A stretch of 64,000 bases of DNA from Mytilus edulis (lineage: Eukaryota), in contig NC_092345.1 of the NCBI RefSeq assembly GCF_963676685.1, positions 89,218,001-89,282,000 of the forward strand, written 5' to 3'. This document shows positions 18,001 to 27,000 of this stretch, piece after piece; position 1 is the stretch's first letter; each line of letters opens with the position of its first letter. Made by a program: the position numbers.

Positions 18001-21000
18001 CAACTTATCGATAAAAGGCCCATTGAGCATTAATCTTTTTTTTTGATTGCCTTTCATTTTACCACTTTTTAAGGTATCAAATGTTAATTATCACGTGAAG
18101 TAGTAGTCAATTAAAGGATACATCATAAAAAAGTCCTGCATTGGTGTTCTAGTCGGTGGATAGTAGGGATGTTGCTGATGCTGAGTTGACCCAGGTTGAT
18201 ATCTTTGAGGCGGAGCATAGGTTGATCCTTCAACCTCTATTCCTTCATATTCGGGAGCTTCAGTTTGTGGAGGAGGTTTCGGTGTTGTTGTTGTAGTTGT
18301 TGTAGTAGTTGGTTTAGGAGTGGGTTTTGGTGTAACAGGTCTAGTGTAGTAAACTGGAGGTTGATAGACTGGTGGTTGATAGACACCTCGATGGTATTGA
18401 GGTTGATATATATATCTCTGTTGTTGATGCGGGTATTGAGGAACAGGCGAAAATCCCACTTGATGTGGCTGTTGTTGCTGAAGATTGGCGGGTTGTGTTT
18501 GAATAGGCATTGCTTGTTGTTGTTGCTGCAGATTGACGGGTTGTGTTTGAATAGGAATTAGTTGTTGTTGTTGCTGCAGATTGACGGGTTGTGTTTGAAT
18601 AGGCATTGGTTGTTGTTGTTGCTGCAGATTGACGGGTTGTGTTTGAATAGGCATTGGTTGTTGCTGTTGCTGCAGATTGACGGGTTGTGTTTGAATAGGA
18701 ATTGGTTGTTGCTGCTGCTGCATAAATAGTTGCTGTTGCTGAGTAGAAACCATCGTTTGTACGGTTTTATTTGGAGAGAATTGTGTTTGAGTAATGGATT
18801 GAATGGGTTGATTAACAGGAAACAATGGTTGATTGACTTGTTGAATTTGATTTGCTTGAGCCGGTTGTACTGATTGGTTTACTGTTTGTTGTGGTTGAAC
18901 AACTTGTTGCGCCGGGTTAATTTGAACAGGTGCTTGTTGTCCTTGTGGTTGAAGTAAGATTTGTTGTGGTTGAACGGCCTGTTGCAGTTGGGGTAACAAA
19001 TTTACGTTATTAGTAAGTGAACTTTGAACAGTAAAATCCTGCACTGGTTGTTGGACTATTTCAGGCCTTGCGTTTGCCGGAATTTGTTGATTAGAACCAG
19101 GAACAACCTGGAACGGATTACTTGCTGAAAGAGCATTACCGGTCACTGGTCCTTGTGGTACCATTTGCGGCTGATTTATCATGTGAGGTGGTATTGGAGG
19201 TCTTTTGTATACTTGTTGGTTTGCAGGTGGGGCTGCAGGTGGGGCTTGTGGTGGGGCCTGTCCTGAAGGTGGAGTTTGGTAATGTCTTGGTGGACCTGGA
19301 ATTACAAAACAATACATTAAGAATAACGTTTTCAATGGAATAATTGTAGTATATCATCGTTCCCAAGTAGTAACTGCGCGAAATCATAAAAGTTAAGTAA
19401 TTATATTGAGAACATTGTCCTATTCAGTATACTTTGTGAGCTCGGAAGCTTCTCAGCATGAAAATGGGCGGAGTTTTTATTTCAAATTTAAAAATCAGTT
19501 CAAGGTCATATATGCAATTAAAATAAAAATAAACATTATTTGAAAACAAATCCCTAGATTCCCTTGAAAATTTGTGATTAATTGTGAATAAAGAATAGAC
19601 ATCAGAAAAGAATGAACATGATCATCTTAATATCTAACTCTAAGCTATAAGTTGTAGAAGGTTAATATCATTTGTGAAACATTTTGTTAATCTGTAGGGA
19701 ATGATGGTTTTAGGATGATACTGTTAGTTGACAAAGCATTAACAAGCAGCTCAAAAGGAACTTTATGATCGCGAACCTGATCTCAAATACAAAAATGAAG
19801 AATGATCGCTAATCAACTGCTTAAAGCAAAATCAGTGGGTTTGGTAATCAGAAGATATTGGCATTTTTGAACATTATTTTGAATTTATTTTTCAAAGGTT
19901 GAAAGTTTTTAATTTTACCAATCGTCATTACAAATTGCTTTTAGCAACAAACATTATAAAGAGGACCTATATAAACGTAAAGAGAGTAAGTAATACACAA
20001 AGAAGGTGGTAAATATAGACATACCTATGCAGCTTGTTCTCATCATTCAACTTACGTTAAACCATTTAAATACATAATTGTATTAATACTGAACTTATTG
20101 TATCAGAATGATTCTTAACGATTGAAGTTATAACGTTCAATCATAACATTTTTGTCATGTGTTAGCAAATGTTTGTGATATTATTACATGAGAAGAAAAT
20201 AATCAGCTATGCTTTTTTCATGTTTTTAACAAAAACAGGTGTTTGATTTGTATTGTATTTGTTCCATTCTTACATTATAAAATTAAGCTCGCTTTTTGCT
20301 CTTTATATTTCATCGAGTGACGTTTTCTTTGTAAAGCTGCACGATTGGCACGAAGGCATACACTAAGTTTTACACAGACTTGACTAATGAAATAATGTTA
20401 AGTGGAGGAGTATTAAAGGGACACTAGCTACGAGATATATAAAAAATCTAAAGTTTGATTTTTTTCTGTTCAATCAATAATGAAAGTGAAATAGTGAAAT
20501 AAAAATTCGCTTTTTGCAGCCAAAAAGGTTCAATTTTGTCAAATTACGCTAAGAAACATTGATAATTAGTAATTCACTTGCAAGTGAATGAGTCGACCTC
20601 TTTAAATCCGTATTCATGTGAACTTCAATTTAACCCCTATCTAGAGACTGACAACGCATGCATTGTACGTGTACTGGTTATTTAAAGAAAAAGAATGTCA
20701 ACAGTGAAAGTGAAACTATGGTAAATCATTTGATTACTAATTCGATGCACATAAAATCATTCTTATACGGTTAAAAACAATGAGAAACATCTATTTTTAA
20801 TCTATAAAATAAAATCAAACAGACCTATAAAAATCCAATTGCACGTGTTGGTTTAATCTATTCATATCTTTATTTATGTTTACATCGCTTATATGGTCAT
20901 CTGAGGTCAAATCGGTAGGTAATTAGATGGCGTCTGGACTTAAATACACACGAAACGAACCTATATATTATCTACCCCATGCTCTGTAAACTGTTTATTT

Positions 21001-24000: not shown

Positions 24001-27000
24001 CCATTGTGTCTAAAACTAAATATTGGCATATTTTCAAACAGTTTATTAAGCTGTTCGATTACTACTTTTCTATGCGCATTGATTGAAGTCGCATCTGATA
24101 TGGTATTGGGATTATCGAAACTATTAGCTGTTGAAACTAGATTTTTAGAAATGTTTTTTGAATTGTGCAATTTGGACAGCTTCATTTCTCTATTGTTAGG
24201 CGAAGGAGTAGGAGATAATGGATTTATTCTATGAATGTTAGAATTTATGCTAGGCGCTTGCGTTGACGCATGCACAGAGTTTGATCTAAAAAAAGTTTGA
24301 CCGTTATAACTGACCATGCCAGTATGATTAATACTACTTTGTATATCTATTCTACTTGTTCCCATCACCGAGGTATCAGTAATAGTGTTACGCTTGTCTA
24401 TATCAGCATTCTTATTACCTTGTGGGAACGCCTGAGAATGTGTAGCCGTAAACACAAATTTTTGCGCATTGTTAGGATTGTTAGAAGACACTACTGTATG
24501 ATATTGAAAATCAGAACCTTGATTAAGTGGTTGATTCCCATTTGGTGGTGGCTGTCGTTGATTTAGATTTTGTTGAGGATGTGGTTGATTCCCATTTAGA
24601 GGTGGCTGTCGTTGATTTAGATTTTGTTGGGGCTGTGGTTGATTCCCATTTGGTGGTGGCTGTCGTTGATTTAGATTTTGTAGGGGCTGTGGTTTATTCC
24701 CATTTGGTGGTGTCTGTCGTTGATTTAGATTTTGTTGGGGCTGTGGCTGTCGTTGATTTAGATTTTGTTGGGGCTGTGGCTGTCGTTGATTCAGATTTTG
24801 TTGGTGCTGTGGCTGTCGTTGATTCAGATTTTGTTGGGGCTGTGGTTGATTCACATTTGGTGGTGGCTGTCGTTGATTCAGATTTTGTTGGGACTGTGGC
24901 TGATTCACATTTGGTGGTGGCTGTCGTTGATTCACATTTGGTTTGGGCTGTGGCTGTCGTTGGTTCACATTTGGTGGTGGTTGTGGTTGATACACATTTG
25001 GTGGTGGTTGTGGTTGATTTGGTTTGGAATATGGTTGCTTTACATTCAATGGTGGTTGAGGTTGTTGTTGGTACAAATTTGGAGGTGGTCGTGGTTGGTT
25101 GAAATTTGGAGGTGGCTGTGGTTGGTTCATATTTGAAGGTGGCTGTGGTTGGTTTACATTAGAACGTGACATAGGAATGTTTCTATTTGGCAGTGGTTTC
25201 GAAGATGTCCTTTGAAACTGTTGATTCGTTTGTCGCCTTTTTTGTTGCTGTTGACGCTGATTTATACTGTAGGAATGTAATGGTACCGCCTGCATATGCT
25301 TTGGTTGTTGATTTCGGTTCATACTAAAAGAATGTGATGGTACCGTCTTCCTGGGCTTTGGTTTTTGATTTTGGTTTATTCTGTTAGAATGTGAAGGTTC
25401 CGTTTGCGACGGACTCTGTTTTTGATTTTGGTTGATACTTTTAGTATGGGATAATTCCGCCTGCCTTGGCCTCGGATTTTGATTTTGATTCATACTGTTA
25501 GGCTGTGGTTGTTTCGTCTGCCTTGGTCGTGGTTGTTGGTTTTGATTCATACTGTTAGAATGTGATGTTTTCGTCTGCCTGGGCCGTGGCTGTTGGTTTT
25601 GATTCATACTGTTAGAATGTGATGGTTTCTTCTGCCTAGGCTGAGGTTGTTGATTAACTTCGTTTGGCTGTGATGGTATATTGTTTTTATGTGACATTTG
25701 CGACTGAAAATTTGCTCCATTTTTAGTTGCAGATTTGAAAGAAAAACTCTTCATTCCCGGTTTTGAACCAATAACTATTCTTTGTGGTATATTTGAACCA
25801 ACATTCCCAGAAATTTGTCTTGGCACATTTGATCTTTCGCTTCTATATATTTGATTTGGTCTATTTGAACTAGCACTAAATGAAGCATTATTTTCATTTC
25901 TATTTGAATGTTTTTGTGTGCCAAAACGTGCAGAAGAGCAAACTGTTATTAAATATCCTAATATGAGCAGTTGTATATATTCCATTGTCACTTTCACAGG
26001 TGAGATCTGAAGATAACAAAAATACATAGATTAAAAAATTGTTTAAATGTTTTCCTAGTGAGAGTTTCCACCCAAATACCCCATGTCATACATGGCTTCA
26101 TAGAATAAATAAATAATATCTACCCCACCGAAAAACCCACAGAATACAACAACCATTAACAGTATAAAATGCAGCAATCAATACATTCTAGCCTTGGGCA
26201 AGTACGATTTAAAATAGCTGGCGAGTTTAAGTTAGAATTAACTAATAAATAGAATTTTTTGTGTATGTTGTTTAAATGCATACATCTTAATCATCTTTAT
26301 GAGTTATTTTTAACCATAAACAATAATTATATATCTATACCACTAGTGTTGGACAGAAGTTGTATGAATATGTATTGACATGTTTACAATGTCAATTAAT
26401 GTTGTTAGTCATTATTTAGTCAATAGTTTATTAATGATGCTCCTAAATATAGGTTCTCATATTTGACATGAAAAATGAAACGTATTTACATAAAATATCA
26501 ATTTGATAATCATTTGAATTTAAATCTTTTTTGTATTTCAGTCGATAAAAAACATTGCCTTAACCTTATCAAATCAGAAAAAACTTTAAAGCAATGTAAA
26601 TCATCCAAAATCAATGACACAGAGAGCACCAAAAACATAGTTATTACGGAATGTGCATTACAATGATATACTAGTATGAAAAAAATATACGAAGAAGGTC
26701 TGGTACTAGACAATTGGGCAATAGCATTCACCAAAGCACTTTTGAAAAGGGAGATGGCACAGTAAGATCATTGCACACCAATCTATGATAGTTAGACCAT
26801 GGCACAGCAACACCATTGCATATCAAGCTAAAGTTAGACTAAGGCACAGGAAGACTATTGCAAACCAATTTAAACTTAGACCATGGCACAGAAGGACTAT
26901 TGCAAACTAATCTAATATAGGTCGACCATTGCACAGAAAGACCATTGCACACCAAGCTATACTTAGACCATGACACAGAAAGACCATTGCAAACCAAGCT

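What the first reader, a model, noticed from the sequence alone, without database searches (positions are those of the whole stretch)
18091..24419. Possible composite exon: one gene giving two very different C-termini
Seen: the Q/P-rich exon at 19295 has a phase-1 acceptor but no signal peptide or convincing upstream exon in the 2.8-kb gap. Inside the 1287-aa ORF, just after its Q/P-rich half, lies a good phase-1 donor CAAG|GTAATA (24419/24418). Joining them gives in-frame ...AFPQG|PPRHYQ..., a 923-aa secreted, almost wholly Q/P-rich protein. Without splicing, the ORF gives the 1287-aa form with an N/T/S-rich tail, with ATTAAA candidates at ~21141-21170. Inference: an alternative-donor versus intronic-polyadenylation switch. 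Caveat: GGT Gly codons create other phase-1 donors, and a mini-exon MMRTSCIG|gtatgt near 20025 is an alternative.
Basis: inference. Interest (0 to 1): 0.66.

Follow-up and report, generated by a model that had tools for sequence, protein, structure and literature searches.

The report
Mussel secreted-protein gene, disputed last intron
This is an ordinary mussel-specific gene for a secreted, repeat-rich protein, and the proposed splice switch inside its giant exon looks no better than chance, since public gene models of two related mussels join the downstream exon elsewhere.

Summary

- **Organism.** The window is from a Mytilus mussel, not human.
- **Public models.** The M. coruscus model P0002 (1663 aa) is colinear with the whole big ORF plus the Q/P exon. 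Its junction ...LAPG|PPRH... equals window 22160|19295, 11 codons before the ORF stop. Neither of the 2 uses 24419.
- **Chance.** 24419 is one of 57 phase-1 GTs and ties with two others for best consensus. Of 1000 codon shuffles, 971 give at least one equally good site.
- **The tail is coding.** The N/T/S-rich tail stays open in 3 of 3 Mytilus sequences.

Best reading, confidence 0.45: one gene with two coding exons, about 1676 aa, joined through a very weak donor (CGG|GTTTTA). Main rival: a separate 408-aa gene starting at the mini-exon. Only transcript data can decide. The gene has no recognisable relatives outside Mytilus. Interest is low.

The parts
25986..26008 (-). Acceptor (AG at 26008-26007) and a 21-nt leader of the giant exon, in front of the ATG. 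It implies an upstream 5' exon that was not located in the window.
   Evidence: The sequence ttatcttcag|ATCTCACC... is. P0002 carries ISPVKLT across this stretch and 12 further N-terminal residues with no convincing match in the window (tblastn).
22160..25985 (-). Coding part of the giant exon in the preferred model: 1275 codons plus the first base of a split Gly codon.
   Evidence: ORF. It is 90% identical to P0001 and 67% identical to P0002, and colinear with both in alignment A1.
25929..25985 (-). Probable signal peptide MEYIQLLILGYLITVCSSA. The ATG sits in an ACAATGG context.
   Evidence: Judged by inspection; no signal-peptide predictor was available. In the first 33 residues, which contain it, 33 of 33 match P0001 and 27 of 33 match P0002.
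24530..25655 (-). Q/P/N-rich tandem repeats: a 57-nt array at 25258-25655 and a 27/33-nt array at 24530-25160.
   Evidence: Tandem Repeats Finder. Composition.
24413..24422 (-).
   Evidence: It scores 5 of 7 consensus positions, tied with 23576 and 22247. It is no more than chance and neither of the 2 public models uses it.
22158..24416 (-). N/S/T-rich tail, residues 524-1276, with 24 N-x-S/T sequons. Its last 61 residues are the best-conserved block.
   Evidence: 52 of 58 aligned positions in the last block match P0002, against 64-72% elsewhere. AlphaFold2 without an alignment gave mean pLDDT 31.8, so no confident fold. No Pfam, PDB or Atlas relatives.
22154..22162 (-). ORF-end phase-1 donor CGG|GTTTTA (exon ends at 22160), orthologous to the junction in the M. 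coruscus model.
   Evidence: It matches only 2 of 7 consensus positions, so it is very weak.
22122..22157 (-). Eleven read-through codons (FIKSFSTKDSK) and the stop. These are translated only if the last intron is not removed.
   Evidence: Identical in P0001 (11 of 11) and replaced by the 3' exon in P0002.
19296..22159 (-). Intron of the preferred model, 2864 nt. In the rival model this is 3' UTR, intergenic spacer and promoter.
   Evidence: No part of it is repeated elsewhere in the window.
21806..21845 (-). Unlisted candidate first exon MCVGLSLSALFIS|G with donor CTG|GTGTGT. It is hydrophobic and in phase 1.
   Evidence: one of 45 ATG-to-phase-1-GT candidates in the gap, scoring 5 of 7. No public model uses it.
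20796..21170 (-). Cluster of 7 AATAAA/ATTAAA hexamers. These are the first ones after the big-ORF stop, beginning 951 nt downstream.
   Evidence: The gap holds 10 hexamers in 2826 nt, against a window average of 2.6 per kb per strand.
20025..20046 (-). Mini-exon MMRTSCI(G) with donor TAG|GTATGT.
   Evidence: It equals the first 8 residues of the M. edulis model P0003.
18091..19295 (-). Terminal coding exon: the last 2 bases of the split Gly codon, 400 codons and the stop. It is Q/P-rich, with a nine-Thr run flanked by PKP motifs and a Tyr/Pro-rich end.
   Evidence: It is 95-99% identical to P0003, and 282 of 362 aligned positions match P0002.
18470..18722 (-). A 48-nt (16-aa) tandem repeat, 5.3 copies. 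Copy number differs from P0003 and P0002.
17735..17876 (-). Two AATAAA hexamers, starting 215 nt and 351 nt after the terminal stop. This is the likely 3' end of the gene.

Best explanation
The region holds one Mytilus-specific gene for a secreted, repeat-rich and probably heavily glycosylated protein with two coding exons.

**Layout (minus strand)**
- An undetected 5' exon splices to the acceptor at 26008-26007.
- The giant exon then encodes, in order, a signal peptide, Q/P/N-rich repeats, and an N/S/T-rich tail carrying 24 N-glycosylation sequons.
- The giant exon ends at a phase-1 donor at 22160|22159, 11 codons before the ORF's own stop.
- A 2864-nt intron is removed.
- The Q/P/T/Y-rich terminal exon (19295-18091) is added behind the tail. 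The product is about 1676 aa (1275 + 1 + 400).
- Polyadenylation follows at the AATAAA hexamers 215-351 nt after the final stop.

The GT at 24419 is an ordinary Gly codon (GGT) followed by AAT that happens to resemble a donor.

**Shown versus inferred**
- Shown: the sites, the open frames, colinearity with the M. coruscus model, and conservation of the tail.
- Inferred: that the junction is really used in this species. Also inferred: that the 1287-aa product arises only when this weak intron is retained.
For: - P0002 (M. coruscus, 1663 aa) aligns end to end with the big ORF and then, directly after ...NEAMLTYLAPG, with the 3' exon from PPRH onward.
- The tail is coding in 3 of 3 sequences, with only in-frame indels. 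Its last block is the best conserved right up to the junction: 52 of 58 positions against P0002.
- The 3' exon has no start of its own and no signal peptide, yet its composition looks extracellular, including the Thr run.
- No AATAAA or ATTAAA occurs for 951 nt after the big-ORF stop. The window average is 2.6 per kb per strand, and the terminal exon has AATAAA 215 nt after its stop.
- Both exons lie on the same strand with nothing recognisable between them.
- The M. coruscus genome paper describes BRAKER gene prediction that uses RNA-seq (passages read in PMC7227121). That P0002 comes from that annotation is my inference.
Against: - The donor CGG|GTTTTA matches only 2 of 7 consensus positions. 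It ranks among the weaker phase-1 GTs of the ORF: 27 of the 57 score higher.
- A phase-1 GT of any quality falls within the last 12 codons in 382 of 1000 codon shuffles. Frame compatibility is therefore not evidence.
- P0002 is an automatic prediction. I could not see its genomic DNA or any read support.
- The M. edulis model P0003, 95-99% identical to the window, does not join the two. It starts at the mini-exon, which has a good donor, TAG|GTATGT. That annotation was also made with BRAKER and RNA-seq (passages read in PMC9063065).
- The neighbouring gene at 6826-10725 has the same giant-exon layout and ends at its own stop with no further coding exon. A stand-alone 1287-aa protein is therefore plausible.
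Confidence: 0.45

Rival explanations
1. There are two separate genes. The big ORF ends at its own stop (1287 aa) and is polyadenylated at the 21170-20796 hexamer cluster. A second transcript starts near 20.05-20.1 kb, uses the mini-exon MMRTSCI(G) and the donor at 20025, and splices to 19295. Its product is a 408-aa Q/P-rich protein with no signal peptide.
For: - The M. edulis public model P0003 has exactly this structure and matches the window mini-exon 8 of 8.
- The donor TAG|GTATGT scores 5 of 7.
- A cluster of 7 polyadenylation hexamers lies 750-1120 nt upstream of the mini-exon.
- A TATTTAAA motif lies at 20072-20065.
- The neighbouring gene shows that a giant exon can be the only coding exon.
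Against: - An 8-residue first coding exon with no signal peptide is a common way for gene predictors to start an orphan exon (general knowledge).
- The first ATG has a poor context (T at -3), and the TATA-like motif is so close that transcription would begin at about the ATG (inference).
- The product would be intracellular despite a Thr-run and PKP composition typical of secreted proteins (inference).
- The M. coruscus model joins the exon to the big ORF instead.
- No M. edulis model of 707-2253 aa for the big ORF turned up, so that annotation may simply be incomplete here.
Confidence: 0.3
2. An alternative phase-1 donor inside the giant exon at 24419 splices to 19295 and gives a 923-aa, almost wholly Q/P-rich secreted protein. 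Unspliced transcripts are polyadenylated within the gap and give the 1287-aa form.
For: - The site AAG|GTAATA scores 5 of 7 and is in the right phase.
- It lies about 20 residues after the end of the Q/P repeats.
- The Q-G-N residues at the site are the same in 3 of 3 sequences.
- ATTAAA hexamers exist at 21170-21105.
Against: - It is one of three equally good sites among 57 phase-1 GTs. Of 1000 codon shuffles, 971 contain at least one such site.
- Neither of the 2 public models uses it.
- Conservation of Q-G-N is at the protein level, within a block that is conserved anyway.
- The tail it would skip is a conserved coding sequence in 3 of 3 taxa.
- Hexamer density in the gap is near background.
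Confidence: 0.04
3. The 3' exon has a different first exon of its own. One option is the hydrophobic candidate MCVGLSLSALFIS|G at 21845-21806, a classic signal-peptide exon ending in phase 1. Another is an exon outside the gap. A third is translation without splicing from the in-frame ATG at 19316 (MYCFVIPG...).
For: - One search lists the 21845-21806 candidate, with a 5 of 7 donor and the most hydrophobic 8-residue stretch among the candidates scoring 5 of 7.
- Phase-1 introns directly after signal peptides are common in secreted-protein genes (general knowledge).
- The ATG giving MYCFVIPG lies in frame inside the listed ORF.
Against: - The candidate is one of 45, so a hydrophobic peptide in AT-rich DNA is expected by chance.
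- It lies only 277 nt after the big-ORF stop, with no polyadenylation hexamer in between.
- Neither public model uses it.
- Both ATG contexts are weak.
Confidence: 0.12

Closest known systems
P0002, unnamed protein product of Mytilus coruscus (1663 aa; NCBI/UniRef record)
   Same: It is colinear over the whole locus: signal peptide, Q/P/N repeats, N/S/T tail, then the Q/P/T/Y exon. Identity is 67-70% over the big ORF, and 282 of 362 aligned positions match over the 3' exon.
   Different: Repeat numbers differ. It has 12 extra N-terminal residues from an upstream exon not found in the window. It is an automatic prediction whose splice support I could not see.
P0003, unnamed protein product of Mytilus edulis (391 aa; NCBI/UniRef record)
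   Same: It is 95% (BLASTP) to 99% (phmmer) identical to the 3' exon. It uses the same acceptor, and its first 8 residues equal the window mini-exon.
   Different: It has fewer 16-aa repeats. It treats the exon as a separate gene with no signal peptide, which contradicts the P0002 architecture.
Repetitive low-complexity secreted proteins of mollusc secretomes (shell-matrix, mucin-like or adhesive classes)
   Same: It has a signal peptide, long tandem repeats, extreme Q/P/N/S/T bias, many N-glycosylation sequons and a Thr run. It is lineage-restricted and evolves fast. The abundance of such proteins in molluscs is stated in a passage I read in PMC3896809.
   Different: No sequence relationship to any named member was found. 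Pfam gave 0 families, PDB gave 0 matches, and the Atlas gave no usable hit for the tail and only a 0.76 compositional look-alike for the 3' exon. Tissue and function are unknown.
Composite terminal exon with an intronic polyadenylation switch (the immunoglobulin mu secreted/membrane switch is the textbook case; recalled, not from a call)
   Same: It is formally possible here. An exon contains a 5' splice site upstream of its own stop, polyadenylation hexamers lie in the following intron, and a distal terminal exon exists.
   Different: No transcript evidence is available. The candidate internal donor is at chance level. If such a switch exists, it is more likely at the weak ORF-end donor (22160) than at 24419.

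Membership tests
Composite terminal exon / intronic polyadenylation switch | A 5' splice site inside the exon that is used in some transcripts and read through in others. | not testable with these tools
   No transcript data were available. From sequence alone, 24419 is one of 57 phase-1 GTs and is not distinguishable from chance.
Composite terminal exon / intronic polyadenylation switch | A functional polyadenylation signal in the intron downstream of the read-through stop. | tested here: inconclusive
   The 2826-nt gap holds 10 AATAAA/ATTAAA hexamers against 2.6 per kb per strand in the window overall. The first lies 951 nt after the stop. Hexamers alone do not show usage.
Composite terminal exon / intronic polyadenylation switch | Two protein isoforms with different C-termini, both maintained by selection. 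| tested here: inconclusive
   The tail and the 3' exon are both conserved coding sequence. In P0002, however, they are serial parts of one protein rather than alternatives.
Orthologue of M. coruscus P0002 (fused two-exon architecture) | Colinear similarity across both coding exons, with the junction at the same codon. | tested here: met
   In alignment A1, P0002 follows the window ORF to ...LAPG and then the 3' exon from PPRH. E-values were 0 and 1.3e-124.
Orthologue of M. coruscus P0002 (fused two-exon architecture) | A competent donor at the junction in this genome. | tested here: inconclusive
   A GT is present in the right phase at 22159-22158, but the site matches only 2 of 7 consensus positions.
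Secreted protein | An N-terminal signal peptide. | not testable with these tools
   No signal-peptide predictor was on hand. By inspection, MEYIQLLILGYLITVCSSA is a typical hydrophobic leader. The 3' exon, the mini-exon product and MYCFVIPG have none.
Any curated protein family (Pfam-A) | A match at or above the gathering score. | tested here: not met
   The big ORF and the 3' exon ORF each gave 0 families at E up to 0.1.

The most novel reading that the evidence does not exclude
The locus may be caught between fusion and fission within Mytilus. The very weak donor 11 codons before the giant exon's stop would compete with the intronic polyadenylation cluster. The same gene would then secrete a 1287-aa form and a roughly 1676-aa form carrying an extra 400-aa Q/P/T/Y-rich module. 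That module might also be expressed on its own from an internal start at the mini-exon, as the M. edulis model suggests. The balance would differ between species: fused in M. coruscus, split in the M. edulis complex.
Probability: 0.2. Interest if true: 0.35.

Novelty: already known. Interest (0 to 1): 0.14.

Why it matters
It matters little beyond annotation quality.

- **What the locus shows.** Giant low-complexity exons produce many chance splice-site look-alikes. Two automatic annotations of closely related mussels also disagree about the same exon.
- **Practical value.** Settling the junction would give the correct full-length sequence of a lineage-specific, probably heavily glycosylated secreted mussel protein. 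Proteins of this kind matter for shell, mucus or adhesion biology.
- **If the weak last intron is used only part of the time.** The locus would be a tidy but unsurprising invertebrate example of isoform choice by intron retention and alternative polyadenylation.

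Tried and rejected
**Homology and structure**
- Similarity between the big ORF and the 3' exon, and between the big ORF and the neighbouring 1299-aa ORF: none (best E 31 and 0.084).
- Pfam on the three large ORFs: nothing for the two of the finding.
- The exhaustive representative search with the 3' exon gave 12 hits at E up to 0.001. Only P0003 is a true relative. The other 11 match only residues 140-283 of the query, the repeat region, so I set them aside as low-complexity matches.
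- PDB sequence search gave 0 matches. The ESM Atlas gave no usable hit for the tail and a 0.76 Mediator-15-like compositional look-alike for the 3' exon, which I rejected as chance.
- AlphaFold2 on tail residues 524-1276 without an alignment gave mean pLDDT 31.8. That is uninformative, so no fold search was run.

**Sequence features in the window**
- The upstream 5' exon of P0002 was sought in the window by tblastn. Only the ISPVKVT stretch next to the ATG matched.
- Copies of the gap sequence elsewhere in the window: none.
- Rfam and tRNA scans of the window: 0 and 0.

**Literature**
- A literature search for Q/P-rich Mytilus shell proteins (one paper's passages) gave context only and no identification.

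**Left unchecked**
Accessions and cluster mates of P0001-P0003 were therefore not seen.
Whether a shorter (under 707 aa) M. edulis or M. galloprovincialis model of the big ORF exists stayed unchecked.
No Mytilus genomic DNA other than the window could be read.
- Supplements of the genome papers were closed. They might list read support for these models.
- The spliced models were searched exon by exon only, and the joined step was left out.

Full report
**Origin and method.** The window is AT-rich (about 32% G+C, no N). Its proteins match only Mytilus records: 95-99% identity to an M. edulis protein and 67-70% to an M. coruscus protein. I take it for a mussel of the M. edulis complex, not human. 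Everything in the finding lies on the minus strand. I searched the splice models exon by exon and left the joined step out. Isoform lengths below come from adding codon counts.

**Check of the observation.**
- The ORF from the ATG at 25985 to the stop at 22124-22122 is 1287 aa.
- The downstream ORF is closed by a stop 14 codons above ...ttccag|GTCCACCA. This acceptor (19296|19295) is the only AG in that interval, so the exon needs a phase-1 donor.
- The donor CAAG|GTAATA lies at 24419|24418 in phase 1.
- The mini-exon MMRTSCI(G)|gtatgt is at 20046-20025. ATTAAA hexamers start at 21170, 21146 and 21105.
- The compositional description is right: Q/P/N-rich for residues 1-523, N/S/T-rich with 24 N-x-S/T sequons for 524-1276, and Q/P-rich for the 3' exon.

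**Is the internal donor more than chance? No.**
- The ORF has 150 GT dinucleotides, 57 in phase 1.
- Three of the 57 match 5 of 7 flanking consensus positions (24419, 23576, 22247), and 10 of 57 match 4 or more.
- In 1000 codon shuffles of the same ORF the mean was 3.6 such sites. At least one occurred in 971 of 1000 and three or more in 743 of 1000.
- Its position about 20 residues after the repeats is a post hoc coincidence, with a rough chance of about 5%. That figure is my estimate, not a computation.

**Evidence from relatives: the big ORF.** The big ORF found 2 proteins among 7698 candidates of 707-2253 aa.
- P0001 is an unnamed ENA record of 1295 aa at 90% identity. It has the same naive ORF ends as the window, including intron-derived residues in front of the acceptor. 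It is therefore an ORF call on genomic DNA and says nothing about splicing.
- P0002 is the M. coruscus unnamed protein of 1663 aa.

**Evidence from relatives: the 3' exon.**
- In the exhaustive representative search it found one true relative, P0003. The other 11 of 12 hits touch only its repeat region.
- In each of the two word-indexed searches it found one protein among the 8000 candidates scored: P0003 for 220-700 aa and P0002 for 701-2000 aa.

**What the two models show.**
- In alignment A1, P0002 runs through the whole big ORF, tail included, to ...NEAMLTYLAPG. It then continues directly with PPRHFQ..., the start of the 3' exon. In the window that junction is 22160|22159 joined to 19295, in phase 1, 11 codons before the ORF stop.
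- P0003 (M. edulis, 391 aa) begins MMRTSCIG and then follows the 3' exon.
- Both public models use the 19295 acceptor, and neither uses 24419.
- Passages I read in the two genome papers say that both annotations were made with BRAKER using RNA-seq (PMC7227121; PMC9063065). That P0002 and P0003 stem from those annotations is my inference. I could not see any read support.

**The tail is coding.**
- It is open in 3 of 3 Mytilus sequences, and all indels are in frame.
- Identity to P0002 is 64-72% along the tail and 52 of 58 in the last block before the junction.
- Reading through 24419 is therefore at least the main mode. In the orthologue the Q/P exon extends the tail rather than replacing it.

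**Weighing the two public architectures: for the fused model.**
- It has the orthologue.
- The 3' exon has no start or signal peptide of its own, yet its composition looks extracellular (a run of nine Thr between PKP motifs).
- There is no AATAAA or ATTAAA for 951 nt after the big-ORF stop, while an AATAAA lies 215 nt after the terminal stop.

**Weighing the two public architectures: against the fused model.**
- The window's donor CGG|GTTTTA matches only 2 of 7 consensus positions.
- A phase-1 GT in the last 12 codons arises in 382 of 1000 shuffles.
- The neighbouring gene has the same layout and ends at its own stop.

**The split model.**
- In its favour are the M. edulis model, a good donor (TAG|GTATGT, 5 of 7) and the hexamer cluster at 21170-20796 in front of the mini-exon.
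- Against it, an 8-residue first exon with a weak ATG context is a typical predictor artefact. It also yields a protein with no signal peptide.

**Other possible partners for the acceptor.**
It is hydrophobic and in the phase typical of signal-peptide exons.
- It lies 277 nt after the big-ORF stop, no model uses it, and it is expected by chance in AT-rich DNA.

**What the protein is.** It is a Mytilus-restricted, repeat-rich protein that is probably secreted and heavily glycosylated.
- It has 57-nt, 27/33-nt and 48-nt coding tandem repeats whose copy number varies between species.
- No Pfam family, no PDB relative and no usable Atlas neighbour were found.
- The tail has no confident predicted fold (mean pLDDT 31.8 without an alignment).
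- It works like the repetitive low-complexity secreted proteins common in mollusc secretomes (a passage read in PMC3896809). Membership of any named family was tested and not met. Tissue and function remain unknown.

**Verdict.**

| Reading | Confidence |
|---|---|
| One gene, two coding exons joined at 22160\|19295 | 0.45 |
| Separate gene starting at the mini-exon | 0.30 |
| Another first exon for the 3' exon | 0.12 |

The link between the two ORFs is plausible, while the internal donor and the replaced C-terminus are not.
- Only transcript or peptide data can decide. None were reachable here, and no Mytilus DNA beyond the window could be read.
- Interest is low. This is an annotation question about an already modelled, though inconsistently modelled, orphan gene.

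Noticed in passing
window 6826-10746, minus strand: A neighbouring gene has the same layout as the gene of the finding. An acceptor (tttgcag|) lies about 20 nt before an ACCATGG start. It has a hydrophobic leader (MVAVLITCILMFGLNEVWS) and a 1299-aa ORF (1289 aa from that start) in one exon that is N/K/T/S-rich, with 36 N-x-S/T sequons. It has no Pfam family above cut-off, no significant similarity to the finding's ORF (E 0.084) and no downstream coding exon. The two may form a small cluster of giant-exon secreted glycoprotein genes.
   Followed up: partly
window about 60491-62336, plus strand: This is the virus-like stretch, a decayed retroelement. The Pfam reverse-transcriptase profile RVT_1 is covered almost end to end (positions 3-204 of 205). 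The match is spread over three reading-frame segments, so there are at least two frame changes within the domain. No gag, integrase, RNase H or endonuclease domain was detected around it at E up to 0.05, so its class (LINE-like or LTR-like) is undetermined. It is described only.
   Followed up: partly
window 33812-34288 and 41269-41700: Two arrays of a 21-nt satellite, about 22 copies each, are reverse complements of one another and lie about 7 kb apart. They account for the overlapping ORFs on both strands at these places. Whether they bound a larger element was not examined.
   Followed up: no
window 52923-54838, 43758-44117, 59278-59937 and 26754-27299: Further satellite arrays: a 44-nt unit with 43 copies, another 44-nt unit with 8 copies at 98% match, a 27/58/167-nt array just upstream of the retroelement, and a 42-nt array about 750 nt upstream of the giant exon's acceptor.
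   Followed up: no
whole window: No Rfam family reached its gathering score, and no tRNA gene was found.
   Followed up: yes
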